Of a stretch of 29,450 nt of DNA, positions 3,010 to 29,267 are shown one piece after another. Under the pieces are notes generated by a model, which was not told where the DNA came from, searched no databases, and saw only the letters and a list, made by a program, of their open reading frames with translations. The DNA is from an uncultured archaeon (GTDB lineage: Archaea; Iainarchaeota; Iainarchaeia; Iainarchaeales; CSSED10-239), in assembly GCA_964586355.1 (NCBI GenBank), contig CAZPGO010000026.1, forward strand, positions 1-29,450, written 5' to 3'. Each line of letters opens with the position of its first letter. Position 1 is the stretch's first letter. The position numbers and the translations under genes are program-made.

Positions 3010-3963
3010 ATGAAAAAAACAATAATTATTTTAGGAATTTTAATATTATCTTTGTTCTCTTTATCAGCTCAAGAAGAAATATTAAATAATGAAACTATAA
3101 ATATTAAAGTATCCTCTCCAATTTCCTTAAGTCTAAATAAAGACTTTAATGTTACTCCTGACACCATAATTGTAAGAAAAGAAAATGATCTTCAAATTAT
3201 TGCTGGTCAAACAATTATTTCAAAATATGAATATGAAAATAAACTAGATTATGCTGTGGTTATAAAACAAGAACTTAACCTTAATATTGAAACAAATAAC
3301 AATAGTATAGCAACATATTTGGCTCAGGAGTTAGAAACAGAAGAATGTTTAGAAAAAAATGGTTCTTTATTAAAATATAATGATCAAAGAATAACAGTTT
3401 TTAATAAAAAAGAACAAAAACACTTGTGTTTTTTAGAAAAGAAAAACGATTTTTATTTTTTTGAGGGTAAATTAGTTTTGGAGTTAGAAATCAACCCAGG
3501 AAAAACAACTAAATATCTTTTAATAGTAACCACTCCACAATTAGCTTTTGATCTTAATGATAACACCTTAGTTTTTGAAGATCAGATCTCTATAGACTCT
3601 AAACAAAATCAAAGACTATTTGATGCAAATTATCAAGGAGTTGGTCTTGAAGAATTTGGTCCAATTACTACTAGTGATGAAAATAACTCTCTTTTAGGTA
3701 ATCTTAGAGACATCTACAATAATCAAGCAAGAAGAAATCTTAATAATAATTATTCAAAGACAGATACTGAGATAAATACTGCTCTAAATAAATCACAAAC
3801 AGAACCTGCTGGAAATACTTTAAAAAATAAAATGAGTGGTCTTGTTACTTTTAGTGCTTCCAAAAACACCAAATTTATTATTATTTTGATTTTATTAGTT
3901 TTGGTTGGTTATATATATTATAAAAGAAAGAAAAAGAATAATTTTTTAAAACAACGATTATAA
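3010..3963 (+). CDS. Hypothetical secreted / C-terminally membrane-anchored surface protein
   Basis: It has an N-terminal signal-like segment MKKTIIILGILILSLFSLSAQ and a C-terminal hydrophobic helix FIIILILLVLVGYIYY followed by KRKKKNN. No recognisable catalytic motif is present. Confidence 0.6.
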   Translation: MKKTIIILGILILSLFSLSAQEEILNNETINIKVSSPISLSLNKDFNVTPDTIIVRKENDLQIIAGQTIISKYEYENKLDYAVVIKQELNLNIETNNNSIATYLAQELETEECLEKNGSLLKYNDQRITVFNKKEQKHLCFLEKKNDFYFFEGKLVLELEINPGKTTKYLLIVTTPQLAFDLNDNTLVFEDQISIDSKQNQRLFDANYQGVGLEEFGPITTSDENNSLLGNLRDIYNNQARRNLNNNYSKTDTEINTALNKSQTEPAGNTLKNKMSGLVTFSASKNTKFIIILILLVLVGYIYYKRKKKNNFLKQRL

Positions 3964-3964
3964 G

Positions 3965-4585
3965 ATGTTCAAAAAAATAACCCTTTTTAGAAGAAAAAAT
4001 AAAAAAGCAAATGTAATTTACCCAGAAAAATCTTTTGCAAAAAAGTTATCTTCTTTTAATAACCTAGAAAAAGAAATAGGATTAATAAAAATTGGATCAA
4101 AAGTAATTGATATTTCAGGAAAAAGAGGTAAAAAAAGTGTTGCCGTGGATTTAAAACTCTTAGATTCTCTAGCAAAAACAAATGACCTAAAAAAAGCAAC
4201 ATTTATACACACACATATTTTGGGAAAAATAAAATCCCCAAAATCAGCAAATCTTTCTGCTATGGATTTTTCTTGTTTTGTTAATTATTGTAAAAAATAT
4301 GGCCTATCTAATTTTGAAGTATCTATTCTTGGAACAAATTCCTTAGAAATGGGAAGAATACAGATTATGTTTTCATCAAGATTTGTAGAAGAGTTAAATA
4401 AAAAAACACAAAAAGAAATAAATGCTTGGTTATCTTCAATTGTTTTTAGACATCAAATGAATTTTTCAAAAACATCAATAATTTCAGAGTTAAGAAATAT
4501 TGGATCTATTATTAAATATGTTTCTTTAAATGGTTATAAATTAGAAGAAATAAAAGGAACACCTTATATCTCAAAAACAAAATAA
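3965..4585 (+). CDS. Hypothetical protein (possible very divergent JAB/MPN-like fold; unproven)
   Basis: This 206-aa ORF starts 1 nt after the preceding stop. It contains E-x-x-G (EKEIGLI) about 50 aa before HTH...SAMD. That resembles a JAMM motif but with non-canonical spacing. Confidence 0.5.
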   Translation: MFKKITLFRRKNKKANVIYPEKSFAKKLSSFNNLEKEIGLIKIGSKVIDISGKRGKKSVAVDLKLLDSLAKTNDLKKATFIHTHILGKIKSPKSANLSAMDFSCFVNYCKKYGLSNFEVSILGTNSLEMGRIQIMFSSRFVEELNKKTQKEINAWLSSIVFRHQMNFSKTSIISELRNIGSIIKYVSLNGYKLEEIKGTPYISKTK

Positions 4586-7516: not shown

Positions 7517-9001
7517 TTATTTTATTAATATTTTCTTAATCTCTAAAAAACCAGTAAACTCATTTTCCATAATCTTTTTAGATTCTAGAATTTTTATAGA
7601 TCTTTTAAACATAGGAGAATCAATAACAACAGTCTCATATTCTCCACCCTCTCCAGCAATATTAAAACCATATTTTTTGTTTAGTTTTTTAAAATCTATA
7701 AGATCTTCTTTAGAAACAACTTTTCCAAGATACTCTTGATCTAACCCTAATGCTGCAATTTTACAGATCATAAACTTAAAATTATTATTTAATAATAGCT
7801 CAATTTCCTTTTCTTGATCCATTTGCCACAAAGGAGCAATCAATTCTACTTGTAATTTGTTACAGATAGTTAAAACCCTTTCTCTTTGATAATTACTAAA
7901 AAGAGCACCACAGACTATTCCTGTTATTTTATATTTATTAATAGTTTTTTTTATTAGTAGTTCTAGATCATCTAACTCCTCTTCCTTTACAGAATTAGAG
8001 TTTTTTGTAAGTAGCGGTAGATTCAAACACTCCGCTTGAGCATTTAATAAATTCAGCTCAGGTTTTTGATACATATATGAGTCATTAGAACTAGGGATAA
8101 TAGATAACAAACAGGAAAAATTATATTTATTTTTTACTAAAAACATAGAAAGATTACTATCCTTACCACCAGAAAAAAGAACACCAACATTTTTTTTTAA
8201 AAAAGAGTTTAAATACTCTGTTTTTGTTTTAAATTTATTTTCTTTAGCTAACTTTTCAATAACCCTATCAGAATTACTACCATATTGACAAGCAACTTTT
8301 TTTCTTTCACTAATTTCTGAACAGAGACCAAGATCTTTACCAATCTCTCTTATTATTATTTTATTTTGTGTTTTAGAAAGCAAATATTTTGAATCAATAG
8401 TTAAAGAATAATTTATTAGATCTTTATCTAAATATGGACAAACAATAGAAAGATTAAAAAAACTAGCAATAGCTTGATCTCTATCTAAGTTGTCCTTTTG
8501 AAGATTTTCTAAGCATTTTTTTGTTTCTTCTTTAATATCTTTACTTAATCTAAACTTGTGATAACCAGCAAACAACTCATCACTTCCAAGACCAGAAAAA
8601 AGAACATCTGTATTTTTGCTTTTTGCTTTTTTTGCACAAAGATATACTGGTATTGCAACCCCCATATTTATGGGGTTTGTGGAGTTAGTAACATCTATTA
8701 TATCTTTAATAATTACAGGTAATTCTTTTTTCTCACAAGAAATAATATTTAGATTTAAATTTAGATCCTTTGCTAGCTTTTTTGCAAAATAAAGATCTTT
8801 TGGGTCGTTTATATCTTTTACATATGCAAAAAAACAATCAAATTTTATTTTGTTTTTCTTAAGAATAATTGCTAACAAAGCAGAATCAACACCACCACTT
8901 AGTAACAAACCATATTTTTTAGATCTATTTTCTGTTAATTTCAGTATAGATCTTTCTAATAAATTTAACAATTCTTCTTTTGATTTATTCATTGACACCA
9001 T
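7517..9001 (-). CDS. Fusion of two PP-loop ATP-pyrophosphatase domains: asparagine-synthetase-like adenylating domain (no glutaminase domain) + Dph6/MJ0570-like diphthine-ammonia-ligase domain
   Basis: The N-terminal half has LLLSGGVDSALLA and SGLGSDELFAGY, which are AsnB C-domain motifs. The C-terminal half has VLFSGGKDSN and AGEGGEYETVV, which are MJ0570/Dph6-type motifs. The start is ambiguous: GTG at 9010 (overlapping the U32 stop as GTGA), ATG at 9001 or ATG at 8992. Confidence 0.8.
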   Translation of the reverse strand: MVSMNKSKEELLNLLERSILKLTENRSKKYGLLLSGGVDSALLAIILKKNKIKFDCFFAYVKDINDPKDLYFAKKLAKDLNLNLNIISCEKKELPVIIKDIIDVTNSTNPINMGVAIPVYLCAKKAKSKNTDVLFSGLGSDELFAGYHKFRLSKDIKEETKKCLENLQKDNLDRDQAIASFFNLSIVCPYLDKDLINYSLTIDSKYLLSKTQNKIIIREIGKDLGLCSEISERKKVACQYGSNSDRVIEKLAKENKFKTKTEYLNSFLKKNVGVLFSGGKDSNLSMFLVKNKYNFSCLLSIIPSSNDSYMYQKPELNLLNAQAECLNLPLLTKNSNSVKEEELDDLELLIKKTINKYKITGIVCGALFSNYQRERVLTICNKLQVELIAPLWQMDQEKEIELLLNNNFKFMICKIAALGLDQEYLGKVVSKEDLIDFKKLNKKYGFNIAGEGGEYETVVIDSPMFKRSIKILESKKIMENEFTGFLEIKKILIK

Positions 9002-9006
9002 AAAAA

Positions 9007-10203
9007 TCACTTAAATAAATAAACCTCATCATTTCTTCTTACCCTTTTTTTTACCTTAATTGCAATAAGATCTCCTTTTTTTGCAATTTTTGTAAAATTA
9101 TTTTTAGATAATTGCATCTCTTTTATATTTTCTTCTAAAACACCAGTAGTTGGACCGATAATTAAAATATCATCATTAATTTTTAGAGATCTAGCTTCAA
9201 TCTTAATCTCTGCAACAGAAATTTTTCTAAAATAGTTTGTGATTTTTCCAATTCTTGTTTTTGTTTTGGTTGCTTTTGACCCTCTAGTGTCCGTCCACTC
9301 ATTTATTGGTCTACCTAAATAAAAGCCATCACTAAAATCTCTATTATAAACTGTTTTTAATTTTTCCATAAGCTCTTCTTTTTTTTTAGAAGATAGTTTT
9401 TTTTTAAAATACAGATCAATAGCGTCTCTATAAACAGATGTTACAACCTTTACATACTCTGGGGACTTTCCTCTACCTTCAATCTTTAAAGCAGAAACAT
9501 TAAGAGCTAAAATCTTTTCTAAAAAAGGTAAGGTACAAAGATCTTTTGGACTTAGTATGAAATTATTGTGTATCTCTAATTGTTTATTTGTCTCTATATC
9601 AGTTGCAATATACTCTCTTCTACAAGGCTGAATACATTTCCCTCTATTAGCTGAGTGACCATATAAAAAATGAGACATAAAACATCTTCCACTAATAGCA
9701 ACACACATAGCTCCATGAATAAATATTTCTATATCTGCCTTTGTATTTCTAATTATTTTCTTAATCTGATCTAGAGAACATTCTCTTGCAAGAACAAATC
9801 TTTTAATACCAAGTTTTTTATATTCATTAATTGATAAAGAATTACTCACACTTGCCTGAGTACTTAGATGTACCTCAAGCTTTTGCTCTCTTGCTAGTTT
9901 TATTACTCCAAGATCCCAAGAAATAATTGCATCAATTTTTGCTTTTTTTGCAGAAATTAATGTTTTCTTTATCTTGTTTATTTCATCATCAAAACATATA
10001 GTATTTAATGTTAAATATACTTTAACTTTTGAATCATGAGCAATTTTTGTGATCCTATTTAGATCTCTTAGAGTAAAATTTCTTGCAGATTCTCTCATGT
10101 TTAAGCCCTTAACACCCAAATAAACAGCATCTGCACCCCCATCAATAGCTGCTATTAACATCTCAAAGTTTGCAACTGGTGCTAGTAATATTGGTTTTTT
10201 CAT
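9007..10203 (-). CDS. Peptidase U32 family protein (Fe-S, RlhA/TrhP/UbiU-like hydroxylase family)
   Basis: The N-terminus is U32-like (LLAPVANFEMLIAAIDGGADAVYLG, TIM-barrel type). It carries the family's four-Cys cluster CVAISGRC-x15-C-IQP-C, i.e. Cx6Cx15Cx3C. Confidence 0.9.
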   Translation of the reverse strand: MKKPILLAPVANFEMLIAAIDGGADAVYLGVKGLNMRESARNFTLRDLNRITKIAHDSKVKVYLTLNTICFDDEINKIKKTLISAKKAKIDAIISWDLGVIKLAREQKLEVHLSTQASVSNSLSINEYKKLGIKRFVLARECSLDQIKKIIRNTKADIEIFIHGAMCVAISGRCFMSHFLYGHSANRGKCIQPCRREYIATDIETNKQLEIHNNFILSPKDLCTLPFLEKILALNVSALKIEGRGKSPEYVKVVTSVYRDAIDLYFKKKLSSKKKEELMEKLKTVYNRDFSDGFYLGRPINEWTDTRGSKATKTKTRIGKITNYFRKISVAEIKIEARSLKINDDILIIGPTTGVLEENIKEMQLSKNNFTKIAKKGDLIAIKVKKRVRRNDEVYLFK

Positions 10204-10226: not shown

Positions 10227-11366
10227 TTATTTAGATAATAATATGTTCTGTATTTCTTTTGCCAAAAACAAACCATCGGTTGTTTTTGTTAATATATTTA
10301 GATCAACTAATTTATTAATTACTCTTTTAGAAGTATTATAATTTTTTGTGTTAAGTATATCTTTACCTTTACTAACAGTAATATATGGATTAGAAAACAA
10401 GCTATCAAAAATAATTAATAATTTTACACTAACATTATTATCTTTTAAATAAGCTCTTGTAATTGATCTATATTCTAGTAATTTGGTAATCTTTTTAATT
10501 GTTTTTTTAGATTGATCAATAACGCCATCTAAAAAATATTCTATCCAATTATTTATTTTACTATTAGAAGATGCATTTAATAAATACTGGTAATAATTTT
10601 CTTTTTCTTTTTCAAAATATTCACTTAAATAAAGAATTGGTTTTTCTAATAAATTACACTTACATAAATACAAAATAATAAGTAATCTACCAACCCTCCC
10701 ATTCCCATCAACAAAAGGGTGTATTGATTCAAATTGATAATGTAGTATTGCAGATTTTATTAAAAAAGGAGTATCATCATCAGTGTTAAGATAGGTTAAA
10801 AAATTATTCATAAGTTCTAATAAATTTTCAGGATTTGGAGGATTATATATAGATGTTTCCAAATCACTATTTGAATAGCCAATCCAATTTTGAACAATTC
10901 TTAATTTGCCAGAATCTTTTGAAAATCCTCTAACATCTAATAATAATATTTTATTTAATCTTAATATTAATTCAAGAGAAATTTTTTCACTCTTAATTTT
11001 TTCTAGTCCTTCATTTAATGCATTTATGTAATTTAAAACCTCTTTTAGATCTTCTGTTGGGTTTTTATTAATTAAATCAGCTCTTAAAACATCAGATAAT
11101 GAAGATCGTGTACCCTCTATTTTAGAACTTAAAACAGCTTCATTTTTTAAATATGGTTTTAAAATTAAATCAGCATTAGGTAAAGTTTTTATTAAACCAG
11201 ATAATTTACCTAAATTATTATTAGATTGTTCAATTTTTTTAATTAATGTGTTGGTATAATTAATAGATATAGGTAACTTGTTTGGTATAAAAACAACATA
11301 TTTTTTATTATCTCTATTTATTGAAATTATTTTACCATTTGGCTTCTTAAAGTTTTTTGTGTCCAC
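10227..11366 (-). CDS. fic: Fic family protein (AMPylase-type), class II with N-terminal inhibitory helix and C-terminal wHTH-like region
   Basis: The Fic active-site motif is HPFVDGNGRVGRLL (HPFxDGNGRxxR). The inhibitory-helix motif SxxxEG appears as SSKIEGT upstream of the core. The ~90-aa C-terminal tail is typical of Fic proteins with a winged-helix domain. The start is GTG at 11366, and there is no in-frame ATG near the N-terminus. Confidence 0.9.
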   Translation of the reverse strand: MDTKNFKKPNGKIISINRDNKKYVVFIPNKLPISINYTNTLIKKIEQSNNNLGKLSGLIKTLPNADLILKPYLKNEAVLSSKIEGTRSSLSDVLRADLINKNPTEDLKEVLNYINALNEGLEKIKSEKISLELILRLNKILLLDVRGFSKDSGKLRIVQNWIGYSNSDLETSIYNPPNPENLLELMNNFLTYLNTDDDTPFLIKSAILHYQFESIHPFVDGNGRVGRLLIILYLCKCNLLEKPILYLSEYFEKEKENYYQYLLNASSNSKINNWIEYFLDGVIDQSKKTIKKITKLLEYRSITRAYLKDNNVSVKLLIIFDSLFSNPYITVSKGKDILNTKNYNTSKRVINKLVDLNILTKTTDGLFLAKEIQNILLSK

Positions 11367-14112: not shown

Positions 14113-16419
14113 ATGAACAAAAAAATAATTTTATTAGTGTCAATACTTTTGGTGATCTTATTCTCATCACAGATTTTTGCATATGAGACAAAAGGAGAAA
14201 TTCCACATTTAGCAAATACTAATAAAGGTGGTATTTTTAATTTGCAAATTGAAGATGTAGAATTTGTAAAATATATTCAACCCCTTAAAATTCCAAGCGT
14301 TGGGGATAAATTGTATTGCGGTCATATTGAACTTAAAACAAGTGTTTTATCTGGAAATTCTAAAGATTTAGCTTTAAGCATATTAATGGCTATACCATTT
14401 ACAGATAAATCAATATACCCAAAATATATAGAAGAAATTTATTTATCTGGATATGAAGGTAAAAATCAATTTATATCTAGACAAAATAAAAAAATATGGA
14501 TGTATTCTCCAAGTTCTAATAGTAGGACTCATAAAATGTATTTATATGATGAAGAATTGTGTTCTGCAAAAACTTTAGATTTTTATATTTTTAAACCATA
14601 TTATCCATTAGTTGCAAAAACAACAAAAATGGGATTGTTTACTTCTTTGAGCGTAATTATTCCTGCATTAAATTTAGTGAATATATTTGATTTTACTTCA
14701 GATAGTGTATTTGAGGATTATCAAGAAAAAGTTTATGTTCATCATTATAAAAGGGGCGTTTTTAATCACAAATATGTTATCAGCGCATTTGATTTAGAAA
14801 AAGATGCTGCAAAATTATATAATATAAATAACACAGAAAATTATAGTGATGGATCTGCATATTTTTATAATGCAGATTACGCATATGGTATTCCAGAAAC
14901 AAACAAAAATGTAAAAAAAGAAAATAATACTGTAGATACTGTTGAAAAAGAAGACGATACTGTAGATACTGTTGAAAAAGAAAAAGAAACAGAAAAAGAA
15001 ACAATTACATTAAAACAAGAACAACTAAAAATAAATAAAATAATAAATAAAGAAAACAATGAAGAACTAGTCTATGATATAGAAAATAATAGATATTATT
15101 TTGTTTCTGATAACTTAAATGCAGATGTATATTTAGATTCAGCTTATAACCAAAATAAAGAGATCTGTTACCTATTTACAGATCTATCAAATCTTAACCA
15201 AGAAAACATTAATTCTTTTGTAATTAACCATCTAAAAGGAGAAACAGTTACAGAGTTATCAAATGTTACTTGTACTAACAATGTAAATTCTGGAAAAATA
15301 TCTTTAGAAAACATTTCTGAAAATAAATTTTTATTAGTCTTACAAAGAAAGGATTTAGAAAATCTTCTAGTTTCAAAAACTAGAATAATTAAGATCTCTA
15401 AAGAAGCTTATTTAAATTTTGTAAGATATGAAATAAATAAAAAAATTGCAACCTTTTTTTGTCCAAATTGTAATTATCCTAAATTTAATTTCGATCTTTC
15501 AACAACAGAACAAAATATTATAATTCCAGAAATAACTGTTGATATAGAAGAAAGCAACGAAAATATTGTTGATTCAGAAACTTCAACACAAGAACAAACA
15601 GATGATTCAACAAATACTTGTTCAATTTACAAACAAAATTCATTAGATGAATATATCTCTTGTTTAAAAAATAATTTGAATGTGTTTGATATAACTAAAA
15701 TTTATGATTATGGGGGCAGTAGTGGAACAGGTAGTGAATTGATGAATATAAAATATAATGATTCCTCTAATTGTTATAATAATTCTGAATTTAATAACTT
15801 GATTTTTAATACTGCACAAAAATTAAACTTAACAGAAGAAGAAACTGCTCAATTGTGGGCCAGAATAGCAGCAGAGTCAGGTTGTAGTGTAACTTGTGGG
15901 GCTGGTTCTAATTGCGGAAGTGATGGAGTTGCTCAAATTATGGTAAGTGTTTGGACTGAAGAATATAATAGACTAAAATCTAAATTACTTGATATTAATC
16001 CAAGCAAATATAGTACAGAAACTAAATACAAAACAGAATTAGAAAATAGTAGAACAGACCAAGAAACCTCTTTAGAAATATCTACTGCAATAAATAGAAT
16101 GAATTTAGCAAATGTTATAAACTCTTCAAAAAATTCAACAAAACCAATAACTACAGAAATGTATACAACTTATGATCATAATTCTGCAATAAATGTGAAA
16201 TTTATTTCAGCATATTTATACTGTTCTCCAAATTATTCTTTTTTTAGTGGGGGCTTAAATCAAGTATATAAAAATGAAGGGTGTGCTTATACTGCATTTC
16301 ACAAAATGGGTTATTATTTAGGTTATAAAAAAATGATTTATGATTGTAGTAAAGAAGAAATATCTAATAGCTTTGTAGATGCATATAAAAATAAATATCA
16401 AGGAAAATATTGTAAATAA
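14113..16419 (+). CDS. Large secreted Cys-rich protein with C-terminal lytic-transglycosylase (SLT/goose-lysozyme)-like domain
   Basis: The signal peptide is MNKKIILLVSILLVILFSSQIFA. An acidic repeat linker follows (TVDTVEKE x2, KETEKE). The C-terminal segment WARIAAESGCSVTCGAGSNCGSDGVAQIM matches the SLT catalytic E-S motif followed about 15 aa later by G-x-x-Q-I. The last ~250 aa contain many Cys. Confidence 0.7.
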   Translation: MNKKIILLVSILLVILFSSQIFAYETKGEIPHLANTNKGGIFNLQIEDVEFVKYIQPLKIPSVGDKLYCGHIELKTSVLSGNSKDLALSILMAIPFTDKSIYPKYIEEIYLSGYEGKNQFISRQNKKIWMYSPSSNSRTHKMYLYDEELCSAKTLDFYIFKPYYPLVAKTTKMGLFTSLSVIIPALNLVNIFDFTSDSVFEDYQEKVYVHHYKRGVFNHKYVISAFDLEKDAAKLYNINNTENYSDGSAYFYNADYAYGIPETNKNVKKENNTVDTVEKEDDTVDTVEKEKETEKETITLKQEQLKINKIINKENNEELVYDIENNRYYFVSDNLNADVYLDSAYNQNKEICYLFTDLSNLNQENINSFVINHLKGETVTELSNVTCTNNVNSGKISLENISENKFLLVLQRKDLENLLVSKTRIIKISKEAYLNFVRYEINKKIATFFCPNCNYPKFNFDLSTTEQNIIIPEITVDIEESNENIVDSETSTQEQTDDSTNTCSIYKQNSLDEYISCLKNNLNVFDITKIYDYGGSSGTGSELMNIKYNDSSNCYNNSEFNNLIFNTAQKLNLTEEETAQLWARIAAESGCSVTCGAGSNCGSDGVAQIMVSVWTEEYNRLKSKLLDINPSKYSTETKYKTELENSRTDQETSLEISTAINRMNLANVINSSKNSTKPITTEMYTTYDHNSAINVKFISAYLYCSPNYSFFSGGLNQVYKNEGCAYTAFHKMGYYLGYKKMIYDCSKEEISNSFVDAYKNKYQGKYCK
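14927..14982 (+). repeat. In-frame tandem duplication, 26 bp perfect at 30-bp period (atactgtagatactgttgaaaaagaa)
   Basis: 14927-14952 is identical to 14957-14982. It encodes (N/D)TVDTVEKE twice, followed by KEKETEKE. Confidence 0.9.
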
Positions 16420-20082: not shown

Positions 20083-20580
20083 ATGGAAATAGTAATTAGT
20101 GATTCTTCAACTTTAATCTTATTAACAAAAGCAAAATTAATAGATTTAACATTAAAATATTTTGATATAGTTATTCCAACGATTGTTTATGAAGAAATCG
20201 AGAGAGGCAAATCACAAAATATAGAAGATGCATTTGAAATCGAAGAATTAGTTAATTCAAGAAAAATAAAAATAAAGAACCCAAAAGACAAGCATTTAAT
20301 AGATATGTTAACTAAAAAATTTAGTTTAGATGTAGGGGAATTACATGCAATAGCATTAGCTAAAGAAGAAAACAGAAGCATATTTATTGATGATAAGAAG
20401 GGACTGTGTGCGTGCAAATTGTTAAATATAAACACATACACTGCAATTAGATTATTAAATACATTTTATCTTACAAAATTATTAACAAAAGAGGAATTAA
20501 AAGAAAAATTAGAAATATTAAGAATTAAAGGCAGATATACAATTGATGATTTAAAAGAAACAGAATTTTTAACAAGGTGA
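20083..20580 (+). CDS. PIN-like nuclease domain protein (DUF3368/COG2405-like), putative type II toxin
   Basis: The N-terminus is IVISDSSTLILLTKAKLIDL, followed by IPTIVYEEI, then GELHAIALAKE and IFIDDKKG. This reproduces the acidic-residue pattern and order of DUF3368-type PIN proteins. Confidence 0.7.
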   Translation: MEIVISDSSTLILLTKAKLIDLTLKYFDIVIPTIVYEEIERGKSQNIEDAFEIEELVNSRKIKIKNPKDKHLIDMLTKKFSLDVGELHAIALAKEENRSIFIDDKKGLCACKLLNINTYTAIRLLNTFYLTKLLTKEELKEKLEILRIKGRYTIDDLKETEFLTR

Positions 20581-20586
20581 TTAATT

Positions 20587-20970
20587 TTGGAAAAGAAAAA
20601 AAATATAAGTTTGAGATTAAGTAAAGAGATTGTTGATAAGGTGAATTTGCTTTCAAAACTAGAAACATTAGATAAATCTATTATATTAAGAAGAGCAATA
20701 GAGTTAGGATTAAAAGAAATATCTACTGAAGTTGCAATTAAAGGTTTTGGAGAAGATAAATTGTCTTATTCAGAAGGAGCAAAACTATCAGACATGTATG
20801 TTGGTGAGTTTATGGAACTATTATCTCAAAGAGGAGTTCAAATTAAGCCATATTCTTATGGAATTAAACAACATTTAGATAAATCAGAGAAACATTTATT
20901 AAAAATATTGTCTGATCAAATAAATAAAAATAAAAATAAATACAATGTTAAAAAAAAAAAAGAGAAATAA
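20587..20970 (+). CDS. Putative antitoxin: ribbon-helix-helix N-terminus fused to a UPF0175-like domain, Lys-rich tail
   Basis: ISLRLSKEIVDKVNLLSKLETLDKSIILRRAIELGL is an RHH pattern (beta strand plus two helices). KLSYSEGAKLSDMYVGEFMELLSQRGVQI resembles the UPF0175 core (iSlgkAAelaGms..eF.ell...gi). Only a TTG start at 20587 is available, preceded by aaggtga. Confidence 0.6.
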   Translation: MEKKKNISLRLSKEIVDKVNLLSKLETLDKSIILRRAIELGLKEISTEVAIKGFGEDKLSYSEGAKLSDMYVGEFMELLSQRGVQIKPYSYGIKQHLDKSEKHLLKILSDQINKNKNKYNVKKKKEK

Positions 20971-25083: not shown

Positions 25084-25737
25084 TTATTTTTTCTTATTTT
25101 TTTTGGTATTATCATTTATAATTAATTTACCAGTATGTAAAAAATCCTTCATACTCACTAGACCATATCTAGTAATAATCCAAGATCCTGTAAATATAGC
25201 CCCAGCCATAATAGGATTTAAGTTTAATAATAAAGAAGCAACACCACCAGCAGTAGCAACCTGTATATCAGGCTTAGAAAACAACTCCCCTAATTTTTCA
25301 AAAAACTTTCTGTTTTTACCAGTTTCAGGGTTTATTTCTCCAATAAGTTTACCTTGTTTAAAAACTCTTATCCTTCCGTCTTCTTCAGAAGAAATAATTG
25401 CTAAAACATCCTTACATTCAGAAATACCTCTAGCAGCAGAGTGTCTAGTTCCGTGACCTAAAACAATTTTTGTTTTCTTTATTTTAGCACCATAGGTTAT
25501 GATTTTACCAGAATAATCCATAACCACAGCACCATCCATTAACAAAAGATTCATTATAAGTGTTTTTGTTTCTTTTTCTTTTAGATTAATATTTTTTCCT
25601 TTAAATAGATCTGGATAAAGCATTTCATATTTAGAAGAAATATTATTCTTAGTTAAAACCACAAAAGAACCTTTGCGATCTTTTGCCATCTCCGTTGTTA
25701 GTAGCATAACTTGAGCAATTGTGTCTTTTTTATTCAT
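25084..25737 (-). CDS. Diadenylate cyclase (DAC/DisA_N domain) protein with C-terminal hydrophobic segment
   Basis: DAC motifs are LMDGAVVM (DGA), GTRHSAARGISE (RHxAA) and IISSEEDGRIRVF (SEE-G). I trimmed the start to the ATG at 25737 (MNKKDTIAQV...). The longer track ORF runs into the tyrS start and encodes low-complexity sequence. Confidence 0.8.
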   Translation of the reverse strand: MNKKDTIAQVMLLTTEMAKDRKGSFVVLTKNNISSKYEMLYPDLFKGKNINLKEKETKTLIMNLLLMDGAVVMDYSGKIITYGAKIKKTKIVLGHGTRHSAARGISECKDVLAIISSEEDGRIRVFKQGKLIGEINPETGKNRKFFEKLGELFSKPDIQVATAGGVASLLLNLNPIMAGAIFTGSWIITRYGLVSMKDFLHTGKLIINDNTKKNKKK

Positions 25738-25828
25738 TAGTCTATCCCTTTTTAAAAATAGTATATATATTATATTAGAAAAGGAATATAAATATATTTC
25801 TGCAATATATATATATTTATGAGAAAAG

Positions 25829-26917
25829 ATGAAAAATATGAACTTAACAATAGAAGAAAAATTTAAACTAATAGAAGAAGTTGGAGAAGAAATAATTGGT
25901 AGAGAAGAGCTAATAGAACTTCTAAAATCAGGCAAAAAAATAATAGCCTATGACGGTTTTGAACCCTCTGGAAGAATACATATAGCTCAAGGGCTTATGA
26001 GGGCTATAAATGTAAACAAATTAACAAAAGCAGGCATTCACTTTAAATTTTGGGTTGCAGATTGGTTTGCTTTAATGAATAATAAACTAGATGGCGATCT
26101 AGAAAAAATAAAAACAGTAGGAAAATACTTTATAGAAGTCTGGAAAGCCTGTGGAATGGATTTAGAAAATGTAGAATTTTTATGGGCTTCTGAAAACCAG
26201 AATCAAGAATATTGGTTAATGGTATTAAAGATTGCAAAATTTAACACAGTAACAAGAATTACAAGATGCTCACAGATTATGGGTAGATCAGAAAAAGAAG
26301 AACTACAAGCAGCACAAATATTTTATCCCTGTATGCAGGCAGCAGATATTTTTAATCTTAAAGTAGATATTGCACAACTAGGAATGGACCAAAGAAAAGT
26401 AAATGTTTTAGCAAGAGAAGTAGCACAAAAACTTGGACAGAAAAAACCAATTGCTGTTCATAATCACATGCTTATGGGGCTATTAGAACCAAAGACAGAA
26501 GGACTTACTGGCGCAGAAGCAGCAATAGCTAAAAAAATGTCCAAATCTAATCCTAATTCTGCTATTTTTATGACAGACACAAGAGAAGAAATATTTTCTA
26601 AATTTAAAAAAGCTTATTGTCCTGAGGGAATGATAATAGATAACCCTATATTAGAATATTGTAAATATATAATCTTTGAAAAAATAGAGGAATTTGAAGT
26701 AAAAAGACCAGAAAAGTTTGGTGGAGATATAGTTTATAATAACTATGAAGAATTAGAAAAAGATTTTGTAGAAAAAAAACTACATCCTATGGATCTTAAA
26801 AACTCAGCAGCAAATTACATAGATCAATTAATTGAACCTGTTAGAAACCATTTTGAAACAGATCCCAAGGCTAAAGAACTGTTAGAAAAGGTAAATAGTT
26901 ACAATATTACTAGATAA
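25829..26917 (+). CDS. tyrS: Tyrosine--tRNA ligase, archaeal/eukaryotic type
   Basis: AYDGFEPSGRIHIAQG is the HIGH region and KKMSKS is the KMSKS loop. The C-terminal block KKAYCPEG..NPILEY...KRPEKFGGD...YEELEKDF..KKLHPMDLKN is near-identical in pattern to the M. jannaschii TyrRS sequence as I recall it. Confidence 0.95.
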   Translation: MKNMNLTIEEKFKLIEEVGEEIIGREELIELLKSGKKIIAYDGFEPSGRIHIAQGLMRAINVNKLTKAGIHFKFWVADWFALMNNKLDGDLEKIKTVGKYFIEVWKACGMDLENVEFLWASENQNQEYWLMVLKIAKFNTVTRITRCSQIMGRSEKEELQAAQIFYPCMQAADIFNLKVDIAQLGMDQRKVNVLAREVAQKLGQKKPIAVHNHMLMGLLEPKTEGLTGAEAAIAKKMSKSNPNSAIFMTDTREEIFSKFKKAYCPEGMIIDNPILEYCKYIIFEKIEEFEVKRPEKFGGDIVYNNYEELEKDFVEKKLHPMDLKNSAANYIDQLIEPVRNHFETDPKAKELLEKVNSYNITR

Positions 26918-27041: not shown

Positions 27042-29267
27042 ATGAGAAAAAAAGAAACTAAAATAATAACAACATTTACAGAAATAAAAAAAGAACCTGA
27101 TGTAATTGATGGAAACATCTATTCTCCCGAAATTAGTTTAATACCAGAAACTAAAGAAAATGTTACTGCAAATAAAAAAATTGCAGAAAAAAAGCCAGTA
27201 ACTAAAAAGAAAGCCCCAGCAAAAAAAAAAACAACTAAAAAAACTGCAGAAAAAGAAGAGAACAAAACAAAAAAAAAGGTAAAAAAACCAGCAACTAAAA
27301 AAAACGCACCAGCAAAAAAAGAAGAAAATAAAACAAAGAAAAAAGTAAAAAAACCGATTACTAAAAAAAAAGCAACTACAAAGAAAAAAATAAAAATTCC
27401 AAAAGATGCAAAAAAAATTAAAAAGAAAATAGAAGAATATTCTAAACAAAATATTTTAGATCTATTAAAAAAACAAGAAAAAACACCTAATTATTATATT
27501 ATTTCTCCAGTAGATCTAAAACTATTAAACAAATATAAAATAGATACAAAAAAATATTTATCTAGACTAAAAAAAGCAAAAACAAAATACTCTGTTCTAA
27601 AAAGATTAGGATATGATATTAAAGATCTACATAACTACAAAATATCAGAACTAAAAAATATTCAGACACCTTTAGAGGCAATACTTTCTTTTAATTTTAC
27701 AGCAGATAAACTTTTAAAAAACGGAATTAATAAAAAATATTTAAGTAAAAAAAAGATATCCTTAAGAAGTTTAAAACTTAAAAAATTCCCAGCCAAATTA
27801 CTTTATACCCTAGGATATAGTATAAAAGATCTAAAAAGAGTTGGATTCTCTTTACTAGAGATCAGCAAAATCAACTACAAACTACAAGAACTAAAACTAG
27901 CAGGATATAAACCAAAGGATCTTAAAAAAATGGGAATAAGTATAAATAATATAATCTCATTAAACTATTCAGTAGCAGATCTTAAAAAAATAGGCGTTAG
28001 TGCAAGAATACTAAAAGAAAAAAACTACTCTTTAAAAAAACTTAAAAAACACTATTCAGTAAAAGAACTTCTTGCAGCAGGATTTACAACGAAACAACTA
28101 ATCTTAGAAGGCTTTGATCTACAAGAAATGAAAACAGAAGATGTTGTTGTAAAAAATGTAAAAGAACTAATAGCCTCAAAAATAACAATAAAAGAACTTC
28201 TGGAATCAGGATTTACATTAAAAGAACTTCTAGAAAATGATATTAGCTTAGAAGAATGCCATAAAGAAAAAATAAATGCAAAAGATCTTTTTAATCTTGG
28301 TGTTACTTTACAAAAACTTAGAGAAGCAGGATATACTGTAGAAGAATTAATAGATATTGCAAAAACAGATATAAAAAATGCAGATTTAGAAAGATTAAAC
28401 TTAGAAGAACTAAAGTTTTTAAAATACACTGTAAAAGATCTACTTGCTTTAGGATATACAGTAAGAGAGCTTTATATCTCTGGATATTCAGCAAAAGAAC
28501 TATATGAGTCAGGAATTAGTTTTAAAGAACTTTTAGAAAGTGGATGCTCAAGCTTTGAAGTAAGAGAACTTGGATGTGATATTAAGGACTTCATACTATA
28601 TGGATTTGATCTTTCTAAACTAAAACAATCAGGATTTAGTGCATTAGAGCTTAATTTAGCAGGGTATAGCCTATTTGACCTTAAACAAGCTGGGTTTAGC
28701 CCCAGGGCTTTATTAAATATTGGATATACCGCAAAACAATTTAGATCTGTTGGGTATAGTGGACAAGAACTTTATCTTGCTGGCTTTGATTTAAGTGCTT
28801 TAAAGTTTGCAGGATATAGACCTAAAGAACTAAGAGGATTAGGATTAGAAATTTGCGAATTCAAAAATGCAGGATACCTAGCAAAAGAAATGAGAGTATC
28901 AGGTTTTAGTGCTAAAGAACTAGCACCAACCTATAGCTGTAAAGAACTTAAAAAAGCAGGATTTGATGCAAGTTCATTAAAGGATGCTGGCTTTAGTGCT
29001 AGTGACCTGCATGAGATTGGATTTACTCATAGAGAACTACACTTAGCTGGTTTTAATGCAAAAGAAGTTAGTCAACTAGGATATAGTATAAGACAACTAA
29101 GACTAATAAGATACTCTGCAAAAGAACTAAGAGTTTTAGGATACTCCGCAAAAGAACTAAGAAACGGCGGATTTACTTTAGATCAACTTAGAGCAGCTGG
29201 ATATAATCAAAAAGAACTAGAAGATGCTGGTTATGATGTTGATAAAATAAAACTTCTACCAGACTAG
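27042..29267 (+). CDS. Lys-rich (H1-like) N-terminus + ~50 tandem decapeptide repeats (xG[YF][ST]x[KR][ED]Lxx); function unknown
   Basis: The 741-aa ORF has no signal peptide or TM. Residues ~44-130 are KKPxTKKK-type. From residue ~185 to the end there is a 10-residue periodicity, for example LGYTVRELYI SGYSAKELYE SGISFKELLE ... LGYSAKELRN GGFTLDQLRA AGYNQKELED. Confidence 0.85.
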   Translation: MRKKETKIITTFTEIKKEPDVIDGNIYSPEISLIPETKENVTANKKIAEKKPVTKKKAPAKKKTTKKTAEKEENKTKKKVKKPATKKNAPAKKEENKTKKKVKKPITKKKATTKKKIKIPKDAKKIKKKIEEYSKQNILDLLKKQEKTPNYYIISPVDLKLLNKYKIDTKKYLSRLKKAKTKYSVLKRLGYDIKDLHNYKISELKNIQTPLEAILSFNFTADKLLKNGINKKYLSKKKISLRSLKLKKFPAKLLYTLGYSIKDLKRVGFSLLEISKINYKLQELKLAGYKPKDLKKMGISINNIISLNYSVADLKKIGVSARILKEKNYSLKKLKKHYSVKELLAAGFTTKQLILEGFDLQEMKTEDVVVKNVKELIASKITIKELLESGFTLKELLENDISLEECHKEKINAKDLFNLGVTLQKLREAGYTVEELIDIAKTDIKNADLERLNLEELKFLKYTVKDLLALGYTVRELYISGYSAKELYESGISFKELLESGCSSFEVRELGCDIKDFILYGFDLSKLKQSGFSALELNLAGYSLFDLKQAGFSPRALLNIGYTAKQFRSVGYSGQELYLAGFDLSALKFAGYRPKELRGLGLEICEFKNAGYLAKEMRVSGFSAKELAPTYSCKELKKAGFDASSLKDAGFSASDLHEIGFTHRELHLAGFNAKEVSQLGYSIRQLRLIRYSAKELRVLGYSAKELRNGGFTLDQLRAAGYNQKELEDAGYDVDKIKLLPD
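27255..27386 (+). repeat. Imperfect 66-bp tandem duplication encoding EENKTKKKVKKP(A/I)TKK... twice
   Basis: 27255-27320 and 27321-27386 align with roughly four-fifths identity by eye. They encode two 22-aa Lys-rich units. Confidence 0.7.

What the first reader, a model, noticed from the sequence alone, without database searches (positions are those of the whole stretch)
27590..29255. About 50 tandem decapeptide repeats (xG[YF]SxKELxx) filling three quarters of a 741-aa protein
From about residue 185 to the C-terminus the protein is a nearly uninterrupted array of 10-residue units. A small residue plus Gly sits at positions 10/1, an aromatic residue (Y/F) at position 2, Ser/Thr at 3, a basic residue at 5, an acidic residue at 6 and Leu at 7. 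I could phase 14 consecutive units exactly (LGYTVRELYI ... SGFSAKELAP). A one-residue deletion follows, and then about 11 more units.

The protein has no signal peptide or TM helix. The unit is not a canonical A(D/N)LXX pentapeptide repeat, because only every second 5-mer fits. The closest thing I can recall is the AGFSAxELKxAG decapeptide array in the central region of Legionella/Coxiella IcmE/DotG. That is a recollection, not a search result. I do not know of a characterised archaeal protein of this kind. Together with the Lys-rich N-terminus, it could be a nucleic-acid-tethered or surface-interaction solenoid.
Basis: partly seen in the sequence, partly recalled or inferred. Interest (0 to 1): 0.7.

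Follow-up and report, generated by a model that had tools for sequence, protein, structure and literature searches.

The report
Archaeal protein of DotG-type decapeptide repeats
A small-genome (DPANN) archaeon encodes a conserved, apparently cytoplasmic 741-residue protein, three quarters of which is about 50 copies of the 10-residue repeat known from the Legionella secretion protein DotG/IcmE; the repeat type is already catalogued (Pfam PF25296), but its structure and function are unsolved.

Summary
ORF 27042-29267 (+) encodes 741 aa. Residues 189-738 are a 10-residue repeat array: 45 strong units against 1.8 expected in shuffles, plus about 6 degenerate units. Lag-10 autocorrelation lies about 18 SD above shuffles.

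The protein scores 417 bits against Pfam PF25296 "Decapeptide repeat region" (cut-off 45). Its only PDB sequence match is IcmE/DotG.

It is not a DotG. It has no TrbI domain, no TM helix and no T4SS neighbours. It is not a pentapeptide beta-helix either. AlphaFold2 predicts, with pLDDT 93 on a 160-aa stretch, one 6-residue helix plus a 4-residue turn per unit. The consensus reads as stacked helix-capping motifs. Foldseek finds no counterpart in PDB or BFVD.

The host is an Iainarchaeum-like DPANN archaeon. Orthologues occur in at least five other archaeal lineages. The C-terminal 28 units align without any indel, each unit keeps its own identity, and dN/dS there is 0.044.

Best reading: a fixed-length helical solenoid scaffold carrying a strongly basic, Lys-rich tethering half. 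The function is inferred, not shown. This is a new archaeal member of a known repeat family, of moderate interest.

The parts
27042..29267 (+). Complete gene for the 741-aa decapeptide-repeat protein (stop codon included)
   Evidence: ORF listing. Exactly the same protein is called on 5 metagenome contigs. Against the strain orthologue L003, dN/dS is 0.11, compared with 0.10 for the neighbouring TyrRS.
27042..27431 (+). Residues 1-130: Lys-rich N-terminal extension, predicted disordered (K = 47% in residues 41-130; net charge +34)
   Evidence: pLDDT is about 30 for residues 1-123. Lysine content is 47%, against 11.7% in the other window ORFs. The segment contains 66/93-nt DNA tandem repeats at 27188-27374. 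Compared with L003 it has two in-frame 9-codon indels and dN/dS 0.16. There is no alternative start codon between residues 95 and 140. L013 and L014 lack this segment at the N-terminus and carry Lys-rich segments internally instead.
27432..27605 (+). Residues 131-188: conserved non-repeat N-domain (NILDLLKKQ..P...I.SP.D..LL.KYKI....Y...LKK.K..Y)
   Evidence: The domain is conserved in all archaeal orthologues (alignments A4 and A5) and is duplicated in L093. It is predicted helical (H121-146, H157-164, H169-178). It has no Pfam family. Its only PDB lead is a non-significant match to the Tho1 SAP domain (E about 0.4).
27606..28418 (+). Residues 189-459: basic, partly degenerate half of the decapeptide array (about 24 units, net charge +15)
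   Evidence: PSSM segmentation. Charge. Helix-turn pattern with pLDDT 77-93. Length and order vary between orthologues.
28419..29255 (+). Residues 460-738: canonical array of 28 units, near-neutral (residues 460-741 have net charge +2), collinear in all archaeal orthologues
   Evidence: Unit table for 5 lineages with zero indels. Orthologous units are 54% identical, non-orthologous units 31%. dN/dS is 0.044. The AF2 model of residues 470-629 has pLDDT 93.3 and pTM 0.79. This stretch gives the best PF25296 and IcmE matches.
28929..28955 (+). Residues 630-638: the single 9-residue unit (TYSCKELKK), which lacks the Gly position
   Evidence: Segmentation. The same 9-residue unit sits at the same place in L013, L014, L093 and L094. 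It coincides with a local pLDDT dip at 626-628.

Best explanation
The gene encodes a soluble protein, most likely cytoplasmic, of an Iainarchaeum-like DPANN archaeon. It belongs to the decapeptide-repeat family (Pfam PF25296), the repeat otherwise known from the middle region of the type IVB secretion protein DotG/IcmE.

Each 10-residue unit is predicted to fold as a minimal 6-residue alpha-helix plus a 4-residue turn. The consensus x-G-[YF]-[ST]-x-K-[ED]-L-[KR]-x can be read as three canonical helix-capping motifs placed back to back:
- Gly as the C' (Schellman) residue of the preceding helix.
- The aromatic residue as N', paired with Leu as N4 (hydrophobic staple).
- Ser/Thr/Asp as N-cap, paired with Glu/Asp at N3 (capping box).

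About 50 such units would stack into a long helical solenoid.

The protein is polar in layout. The N-terminal half consists of a Lys-rich disordered tail, a conserved 58-residue N-domain and Lys-rich degenerate repeats, and has net charge +59. The C-terminal 28 units are near-neutral, have a fixed length, and are conserved unit by unit.

The most likely mode of action (inferred) is a rigid, defined-length scaffold or adaptor. The conserved C-terminal solenoid surface would bind specific partner(s). The basic half would tether the protein to a polyanion, either nucleic acid or an acidic membrane surface.

Shown here: the periodicity, family membership, archaeal orthology, purifying selection and charge layout. 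Predicted: the helix-turn fold. Inferred only: the localisation, the partners and the tethering.
For: - Periodicity and unit count.
- Family membership: PF25296 at 416.6 bits against a cut-off of 45, in 11 stretches. The only PDB sequence match is IcmE/DotG, E = 4.9e-82.
- Fold: the full-length AF2 model gives repeats at pLDDT 80-95, with every unit H6 plus a 4-residue turn. The 160-aa fragment gives pLDDT 93.3 and pTM 0.79.
- Capping logic: across 45 units, Gly at position 2 in 35, a hydrophobic residue at position 3 in 45, S/T/D/N at position 4 in 40, E/D/Q at position 7 in 36, and L/I/M/F/V at position 8 in 45. In the model, the DSSP helix starts at position 5, which makes position 4 the N-cap. 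The motif definitions are taken from PMC4515027.
- No TM helix detected; charge layout.
- Real gene under selection: dN/dS 0.11 overall and 0.044 in residues 460-741.
- Orthologues: six further archaeal loci (L003/L004, L013, L014, L093, L094) keep the architecture. The 28 C-terminal units have no indel. Orthologous units are 0.54 identical against 0.31 for non-orthologous units; at the variable positions the figures are 0.43 against 0.18.
- Host identity: LeuRS is 90% identical to a 'Candidatus (I)ainarchaeum sp.' MAG, and a diphthamide synthase gene lies in the window.
Against: - No experiment and no informative gene neighbourhood supports any partner. The flanking genes differ between orthologous loci, apart from loose linkage to glmS.
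- The AF2 models rest on shallow alignments of 12-21 rows, and AF2 can be over-confident on idealised repeats. A published attempt on DotG reported low confidence for this region (10.1101/2023.03.22.533729). I could not inspect coordinates, so the superhelical geometry is unknown.
- Lysine richness is partly a compositional effect of a genome with 25% GC; background lysine content is 11.7%.
- In DotG the same repeat works in the periplasm, so a cytoplasmic role cannot be carried over from it.
- Absence of a signal peptide was judged only from hydropathy and inspection of the N-terminus.
Confidence: 0.5

Rival explanations
1. Nucleoid- or RNA-associated protein. The Lys-rich tail resembles a histone H1 tail, and together with the basic solenoid half and a possibly SAP-like N-domain it would bind nucleic acid directly. 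The repeat array would coat or bridge DNA or RNA, and this would be the primary function rather than a mere tether.
For: Residues 1-459 carry net charge +59, and residues 41-130 are 47% Lys with KKP/AKK motifs. Lys-rich segments are present in every orthologue, although at different positions. The N-domain profile gives its only non-repeat PDB lead to the Tho1 SAP domain (E = 0.38-0.52). The topoisomerase V helix-hairpin-helix arrays appear among the weak Foldseek matches (TM 0.30, probability 0.08).
Against: None of these matches is significant. The best-conserved part, residues 460-741, is near-neutral (+2). DotG repeats are neutral (net charge 0, pI 6.7) and periplasmic. The AT-rich genome inflates lysine content.
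Confidence: 0.2
2. Adjustable spacer or elastic element, as proposed for the DotG collar or cage. The array would simply set a distance between two ends, and the individual units would be interchangeable.
For: In Legionella the DotG repeat region varies in size between species and even between strains (1,000 to more than 1,500 aa; PMC6761968). It has been proposed to form the collar or cage spanning the periplasm. The upstream half of the archaeal array (residues 189-459) does vary in length between orthologues.
Against: The C-terminal 28 units have exactly the same number and phase in five lineages that are only 40-56% identical, including the odd 9-residue unit. Each unit keeps its own sequence: 0.54 identity for orthologous units against 0.31 for non-orthologous ones. 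dN/dS is 0.044. The protein has no membrane anchor or terminal globular domain to hold apart.
Confidence: 0.15
3. Pentapeptide-repeat-like right-handed beta-helix, for example a DNA mimic of the Qnr/MfpA kind. Hydrophobic residues every five positions (F/Y at position 3, L at position 8) would face the interior.
For: Hydrophobic residues do recur every 5 residues. There are weak sub-threshold hits to Pentapeptide_4: 17.6 bits here, and 30-36 bits in orthologues, against a cut-off of 38. DotG is annotated in the literature as a 'pentapeptide repeat' protein.
Against: Lag-5 autocorrelation is only about 2 SD above shuffles, against about 18 SD for lag 10. All hits lie below the Pfam cut-off. AF2 predicts helices with pLDDT 93 and no strand. 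S/T-x-x-E plus Gly is helix-capping chemistry. The DotG AlphaFold model was also reported not to be a beta-helix.
Confidence: 0.05
4. Envelope or host-contact protein, exported by a non-classical route. It would act at the DPANN-host interface, by analogy with periplasmic DotG and with the neighbouring surface-protein genes.
For: The genes downstream, just past the window end, encode TM-anchored Glug-repeat proteins and a 1,697-aa protein with a signal peptide and a C-terminal TM helix. The family is enriched in host-associated organisms: Legionellales, giant-virus-like proteins and protist proteins.
Against: No orthologue shows a signal peptide or TM helix by hydropathy or inspection. The surface-protein neighbours are not conserved at other orthologous loci.
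Confidence: 0.1

Closest known systems
Pfam PF25296 'Decapeptide repeat region'
   Same: The protein matches the family model strongly: 416.6 bits against a cut-off of 45, in 11 stretches covering the array. All archaeal orthologues also match, at 418-535 bits.
   Different: The family is defined by the repeat alone. No function or solved structure emerged from my searches. Members have many architectures: DotG with TrbI; a protein-kinase fusion; RCC1 + fn3 + Big_2 + DUF4347 giants of 2-4 thousand residues; EF-hand/TM proteins. The archaeal subfamily adds its own N-domain, Lys-rich segments and a fixed 28-unit C-terminal array.
[quoted passage not shown]
   Same: It carries the same 10-residue motif, published as [KR]-x-A-G-[FY]-[STND]-x-x-x-[LI] (10.1101/2023.03.22.533729). 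Repeat stretches are 30-43% identical. The repeat region is the long middle part of the protein.
   Different: DotG has an N-terminal TM helix and a C-terminal TrbI/VirB10 domain that forms the outer-membrane dome, and it lies within the dot/icm gene cluster. Its repeats are periplasmic, net-neutral and variable in number. The archaeal protein has none of those domains and no T4SS neighbours. It scores 342 bits against a cut-off of 750. It is basic, and its C-terminal unit number is fixed. The DotG repeat region is still unresolved in cryo-EM maps.
Pentapeptide repeat proteins (Pfam PF00805/PF13599; Rfr beta-helix fold, e.g. Qnr, MfpA)
   Same: Hydrophobic residues recur every fifth position. 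Every second 5-mer (A-G-F-S-x) loosely resembles A(D/N)LXX. Historically DotG was annotated as a pentapeptide-repeat protein.
   Different: The true period is 10. Scores lie below the Pfam cut-off. The prediction is all-helical with no strands.
Alpha-solenoid repeat families (HEAT, ARM, TPR, PPR; helix-hairpin-helix arrays of topoisomerase V)
   Same: The predicted architecture is a long array of stacked helical units with unit-specific conserved surfaces, as in scaffold solenoids. These are the only kinds of fold Foldseek retrieves, and only weakly.
   Different: The unit is 10 residues with one 6-residue helix, far shorter than the units of those families as I recall them (established knowledge, not checked here). 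No PDB or BFVD match reaches TM-score 0.3 or E < 0.08 for the 160-aa model.

Membership tests
Pfam PF25296 Decapeptide repeat region | Whole-protein score above the curated gathering threshold (45 bits) | tested here: met
   416.6 bits, E = 1e-127, 11 stretches. Orthologues score 418-535 bits.
Pfam PF25296 Decapeptide repeat region | 10-residue periodicity with a G-[FY]-[ST]...[ED]-L core | tested here: met
   Lag-10 autocorrelation is 0.96, against -0.84 +/- 0.10 in shuffles. 45 units are found, against 1.8 in shuffles. The column composition is listed.
DotG/IcmE (NCBIfam NF033900, T4BSS core protein) | Equivalog score of at least 750 bits over the full-length model | tested here: not met
   342.2 bits. 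The best-scoring stretch lies in the model's repeat region (positions 539-680 of 1008).
DotG/IcmE (NCBIfam NF033900, T4BSS core protein) | C-terminal TrbI/VirB10 domain (PF03743) | tested here: not met
   No PF03743 hit at E <= 1. The protein ends 3 residues after the last repeat. In contrast, 65 of the top 150 family representatives do match the P0001 TrbI C-terminus.
DotG/IcmE (NCBIfam NF033900, T4BSS core protein) | N-terminal transmembrane helix | tested here: not met
   The maximum 19-residue Kyte-Doolittle mean is 0.66, with no hydrophobic segment.
DotG/IcmE (NCBIfam NF033900, T4BSS core protein) | Located in a dot/icm (T4BSS) gene cluster in a bacterium | tested here: not met
   The window genes are archaeal housekeeping genes (LeuRS, TyrRS, diphthamide synthase, GlmS, Sua5 and others), with no T4SS component. 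The host is a DPANN archaeon.
Pentapeptide repeat family (PF00805 / PF13599) | Score above the gathering threshold; period of 5 residues | tested here: not met
   Pentapeptide_4 scores 17.6 bits against a cut-off of 38. Lag 5 is only about 2 SD above shuffles.
Pentapeptide repeat family (PF00805 / PF13599) | Right-handed quadrilateral beta-helix fold | tested here: not met
   The AF2 models contain only helices and turns, with pLDDT 93. This is a prediction, not an experimental structure.
SAP / HeH DNA-binding motif (for the N-domain, residues 131-188) | Significant profile match to SAP-domain proteins | tested here: inconclusive
   The profile of 5 archaeal N-domains hits the Tho1 SAP domain only at E = 0.38-0.52. 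There is no Pfam hit.

The most novel reading that the evidence does not exclude
The archaeal proteins may be a soluble, fixed-length, naturally 'idealised' version of the DotG repeat. They would fold into a kind of alpha-solenoid that has not been solved: one capped 6-residue helix per 10 residues, a very short helical repeat unit. If so, the C-terminal 28-unit array would be a tractable model for solving the fold of the still-unresolved DotG collar/cage region. It would also define a new scaffold class shared by DPANN archaea, Legionellales, giant-virus-like proteins and protists, possibly spread by horizontal transfer among host-associated microbes.
Probability: 0.3. Interest if true: 0.6.

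Novelty: new member of a known kind. Interest (0 to 1): 0.42.

Why it matters
The decapeptide repeat makes up more than half of DotG, an essential core component of the Legionella Dot/Icm secretion machine. Even so, it remains unmodelled in recent in-situ cryo-EM work, and its role (collar, cage or elastic element) is speculative.

Four results here give a handle on that problem:
- The same repeat exists in a conserved, soluble, fixed-length form in DPANN archaea.
- It is under strong purifying selection.
- It is predicted with high confidence to be a chain of fully capped mini-helices.
- It has no structural counterpart in PDB or BFVD.

Together these give structural biologists an easier target and show that the repeat is a general-purpose module rather than a T4SS speciality.

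For archaeal biology the protein adds one more conserved protein of unknown function in genome-reduced DPANN lineages. Retention of a 2.2-kb gene in such genomes implies a real role.

Tried and rejected
- Single-protein scan of GTDB genomes. It found no relatives because the tool chose low-complexity or unique peptides as patterns. The first alignment (A1) was too divergent to search with. A hand-phased 4-row alignment of 100-aa repeat blocks worked.
- Word-indexed homology search. It returned only 11 hits. The full HMMER scan was needed to see the roughly 2,000 clusters.
- Exact-sequence cluster look-up. The target is not in that protein collection.
- Synteny through TyrRS in more distant DPANN relatives (78-80% TyrRS identity). 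The gene is not next to TyrRS there, so TyrRS linkage is recent and uninformative.
- Foldseek of the full model and of the 160-aa model against PDB and BFVD. There were no meaningful matches.
- Trick alignment of shifted self-fragments for AF2. MAFFT re-aligned the fragments to their own positions, so it added little diversity. The model was still confident.
- Rfam and tRNA scans of the window. They found nothing.
- Literature searches for PF25296, for decapeptide-repeat papers and for DotG together with DPANN. No paper describes the archaeal proteins. The Licanantase and prenylation hits were irrelevant.
- My first dN/dS value for residues 1-130 (0.67) was an artefact of slicing the sequences without aligning them. 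The aligned value is 0.16.
- Spurious-ORF or compositional-artefact reading. It is rejected because of purifying selection and cross-lineage conservation.
Full report
**1. The observation**

The window holds a 741-codon ORF at 27042-29267 on the + strand. For residues 181-741 the BLOSUM62 self-similarity at lag 10 is 0.96. In 200 shuffles it is -0.84 +/- 0.10, so the observed value lies about 18 SD above. Lags 20, 30 and 40 are also positive, whereas lag 5 (-0.62) is only about 2 SD above shuffles.

It finds 45 units scoring above 3 bits. Shuffled sequence gives 1.8 on average and 5 at most. The 9-10-residue gaps between these units contain recognisable degenerate units, which brings the total to about 51.

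The consensus is [ALS]-G-[YF]-[STDN]-[ALIV]-[KR]-[ED]-L-[KR]-x. The uninterrupted run is 17 units (residues 460-629). It is followed by one 9-residue unit (630-638) and then 10 further units (639-738).

At DNA level Tandem Repeats Finder sees no 30-nt array except 2.3 copies at 29095-29162. The repeats are therefore ancient and maintained at the protein level.

**2. What the repeat is**

Pfam-A gives PF25296 'Decapeptide repeat region' at E = 1e-127 and 416.6 bits (cut-off 45), in 11 stretches. Pentapeptide_4 scores only 17.6 bits against a cut-off of 38. NCBIfam's DotG/IcmE equivalog scores 342 bits, well below its cut-off of 750, with the best stretch in the model's repeat region. phmmer against all PDB sequences returns only IcmE/DotG (7MUC and related entries), at E = 4.9e-82.

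The literature describes the DotG motif as [KR]-x-A-G-[FY]-[STND]-x-x-x-[LI]. It notes that the motif differs from true pentapeptide repeats and that the DotG AlphaFold model is not a beta-helix (10.1101/2023.03.22.533729). The number of repeats varies between Legionella species and strains (PMC6761968). The region remains unresolved in 2025 in-situ cryo-EM work, where it is only inferred to form a cage or collar around DotA-IcmX (10.1101/2025.06.23.660953).

**3. Not a DotG, and not bacterial**

The protein has no TrbI domain and no hydrophobic segment; the maximum Kyte-Doolittle 19-residue mean is 0.66. Its neighbours are archaeal housekeeping genes:
- LeuRS and TyrRS
- a diphthamide-synthase fusion
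- GlmS and Sua5
- CorA and MscS
- a diadenylate cyclase

None of the neighbours is a T4SS component. The LeuRS is 90% identical to a 'Candidatus (I)ainarchaeum sp.' MAG protein and about 53% identical to Woesearchaeota and Nanoarchaeota proteins. The window has about 25% GC. The host is therefore an Iainarchaeum-like DPANN archaeon.

**4. Breadth of the family**

An exhaustive HMMER scan of 1.84 billion cluster representatives finds 2,058 clusters at E <= 1e-3 and 272 at E <= 1e-30. All of them match only the repeat part of the query, at 27-43% identity.

Of the best 150 representatives, 65 carry a DotG-type TrbI C-terminus and 85 do not. The latter include:
- proteins of 2,000-4,000 residues combining RCC1-like, fn3, Big_2 and DUF4347 domains
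- a protein-kinase fusion
- EF-hand/TM proteins from eukaryotic transcriptomes
- proteins with 'YYKKYLKYKSKYL' N-termini

The repeat is thus a promiscuous and already catalogued module.

**5. Predicted fold**

AlphaFold2 on the full protein, with a 12-row alignment, gives pLDDT about 30 for residues 1-123. It gives pLDDT 80-95 through the array. Every unit is a 6-residue helix followed by a 4-residue turn.

A second model covers residues 470-629, which is 16 units. It gives mean pLDDT 93.3 and pTM 0.79 with the same pattern.

In the model the helix starts at unit position 5. The consensus residues therefore map onto canonical helix-capping positions as defined in PMC4515027.

| Unit position | Residues | Capping role | Frequency in 45 units |
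|---|---|---|---|
| 2 | Gly | C' (Schellman) residue of the preceding helix | 35 |
| 3 | hydrophobic, mostly Y/F | N', hydrophobic pair with N4 | 45 |
| 4 | S/T/D/N | N-cap | 40 |
| 7 | E/D/Q | N3, partner in the capping box | 36 |
| 8 | L/I/M/F/V | N4 | 45 |

This mapping is an inference, but it is independent of AlphaFold and explains why these positions in particular are conserved.

Foldseek finds no real counterpart. For the 160-aa model the best PDB match is E = 0.08 with TM 0.22, and no hit exceeds TM 0.30. The best BFVD match is E = 0.3. The full-length model retrieves only generic helical repeats, with TM <= 0.16. I could not read the coordinates, so the superhelical geometry is unknown.

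**6. The gene is real and conserved in archaea**

Closely related strains carry a 741-aa orthologue in the same TyrRS-to-target-to-Glug-protein context. These are L003 from SRR8925729 and L004 from ERZ27250894. The orthologue is 95% identical overall and 97% identical over the BLAST-aligned residues 131-741.

Against L003, dN/dS for the whole gene is 0.11 (TyrRS gives 0.10). The values by region are below.

| Residues | Region | dN/dS |
|---|---|---|
| 1-130 | Lys-rich tail (two in-frame 9-codon indels) | 0.16 |
| 131-188 | N-domain | 0.24 |
| 189-459 | basic, degenerate half of the array | 0.11 |
| 460-741 | canonical array (7 non-synonymous, 39 synonymous changes) | 0.044 |

A scan of GTDB species genomes with a phased repeat alignment returned 182 relatives. 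Of the 80 kept, the two best are archaeal MAGs: L013 (808 aa) and L014 (652 aa). The other 78 are Legionellales, Coxiellaceae or other (gamma)proteobacterial records, presumably DotG. A metagenome scan added L093 (751 aa), L094, the partial L096, and one contig that looks eukaryotic, L095. All the complete archaeal proteins score 418-535 bits on PF25296.

The archaeal proteins share three features:
- a non-repeat N-domain, window residues 131-188, which is duplicated in L093
- Lys-rich segments whose position varies
- a C-terminal block of 28 units that aligns without a single indel, including the 9-residue unit 18

Orthologous units are 54% identical and non-orthologous units 31%. At the five 'variable' positions the figures are 43% and 18%. 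Each unit therefore has its own conserved identity. This is the opposite of the copy-number plasticity reported for DotG.

In DPANN genomes whose TyrRS is 78-80% identical, the gene is not adjacent to TyrRS. Loose linkage to glmS recurs in L014, L093 and L096. No functionally telling neighbour is conserved.

**7. Layout and mechanism**

The charge distribution is strongly polar:

| Residues | Net charge |
|---|---|
| 1-130 | +34 |
| 131-188 | +10 |
| 189-459 | +15 |
| 460-741 | +2 |

Residues 41-130 are 47% Lys, against 11.7% in the other window ORFs. L013 and L014 show the same polarity, with N-terminal parts at +31 and +41 and C-terminal blocks at 0 and +6. The DotG repeats are neutral.

My best explanation, at confidence about 0.5, is a soluble helical-solenoid scaffold of defined length. 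Its conserved C-terminal surface would bind specific partner(s), and its basic half would tether it to a polyanion. The fold is predicted. The partners, the tethering and the location are inferred.

The rivals are:
- a nucleic-acid-binding chromatin- or RNA-associated protein (0.2); the only hint is a non-significant SAP-like match of the N-domain, E about 0.4
- a generic spacer or spring as proposed for DotG (0.15), which is contradicted by the fixed unit number and per-unit conservation
- a non-classically exported envelope or host-contact protein (0.1)
- a pentapeptide-like beta-helix (0.05)

**8. Comparison and novelty**

The protein is a member of PF25296, with all tested features met. 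It works, as far as one can tell, like a solenoid scaffold. It fails every tested defining feature of DotG/IcmE: score cut-off, TrbI domain, TM helix and gene context. It also fails the tests for the pentapeptide family.

I therefore rate it a new, archaeal member of a known repeat family. It has a distinctive subfamily architecture, and no characterised relative emerged from my searches. I found no paper that links DotG-type repeats with DPANN archaea.

Interest is moderate, at 0.42. On the other hand, the fold has no solved structure, and the archaeal form is a promising soluble model for the unresolved DotG region.

Noticed in passing
window 27188-27374 (within residues about 50-111 of the target): The Lys-rich N-terminal tail is built from 66/93-nt DNA tandem repeats. 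It differs from the strain orthologue L003 by two in-frame 9-codon indels. More distant orthologues have no N-terminal tail and carry Lys-rich inserts inside the array instead.
   Followed up: partly
L001 12316-14280 and 14477-16228 (just beyond the window's right end); L003 13519-15096; L004 10545-12230: Two tandem genes encode TM-anchored proteins with faint Glug-repeat hits, and their first ~200 residues are essentially identical. Related strains carry only one copy, of different length (525 or 561 aa). This looks like a rapidly varying surface-protein locus. It is followed by a conserved 1,697-aa protein with a signal peptide and a C-terminal TM helix and no Pfam hit.
   Followed up: no
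window 20083-20580 and 20587-20970 (+): Adjacent small genes with PIN_4/DUF3368 and UPF0175 domains form a likely toxin-antitoxin pair. The pair is conserved in the related strains.
   Followed up: no
window 7517-9010 (-): A 497-aa protein fuses an Asn_synthase-like PP-loop domain (residues 15-165) to a Diphthami_syn_2 domain (residues 275-494). This is an unusual two-PP-loop architecture for a diphthine-ammonia ligase.
   Followed up: no
window 10227-11366 (-): A Fic_N + Fic (AMPylase/DOC family) protein in a genome-reduced DPANN archaeon. A Fic gene also lies near TyrRS in the distant relative L012.
   Followed up: no
window 14113-16419 (+), and 3010-3963 and 3965-4585 (+): Sizeable ORFs of 768, 317 and 206 aa have no Pfam match. 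The 768-aa protein is present in NCBI, JGI and Logan copies of this lineage.
   Followed up: no
window 25084-25935 (-): A diadenylate cyclase (DAC domain) gene lies immediately upstream of TyrRS and is transcribed divergently from it. The longest ORF (283 aa, TTG start) overlaps the TyrRS start; gene callers use a 217-aa version.
   Followed up: no
L093 5659-7914; L096 6007-6198: In L093 the conserved N-domain plus the first two repeats is duplicated in tandem. In L096 a 63-aa ORF encodes the N-domain alone and ends in a stop codon 40 nt before the contig end. This could be a truncated gene, an assembly artefact or a stand-alone domain.
   Followed up: partly
L095 6245-8635 (metagenome contig Ga0099800_1086): A 796-aa PF25296 protein (451 bits) lies on a contig whose neighbouring ORF is an MFS-like transporter with poly-Asn/Asp tracts, which suggests a protist origin. 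Together with the EukProt hits (P0007-P0009) and the kinase fusion (P0188), this indicates that the repeat is also common in eukaryotes.
   Followed up: partly
proteins P0006, P0011, P0212, P0300: Several non-DotG family members begin with a 'YY(K/S)KY(L/I)KYK(S/N)KY(L/F)' motif. From memory this motif is typical of giant-virus (Mimiviridae-like) proteins, but I did not verify that. BFVD Foldseek gave no match.
   Followed up: no
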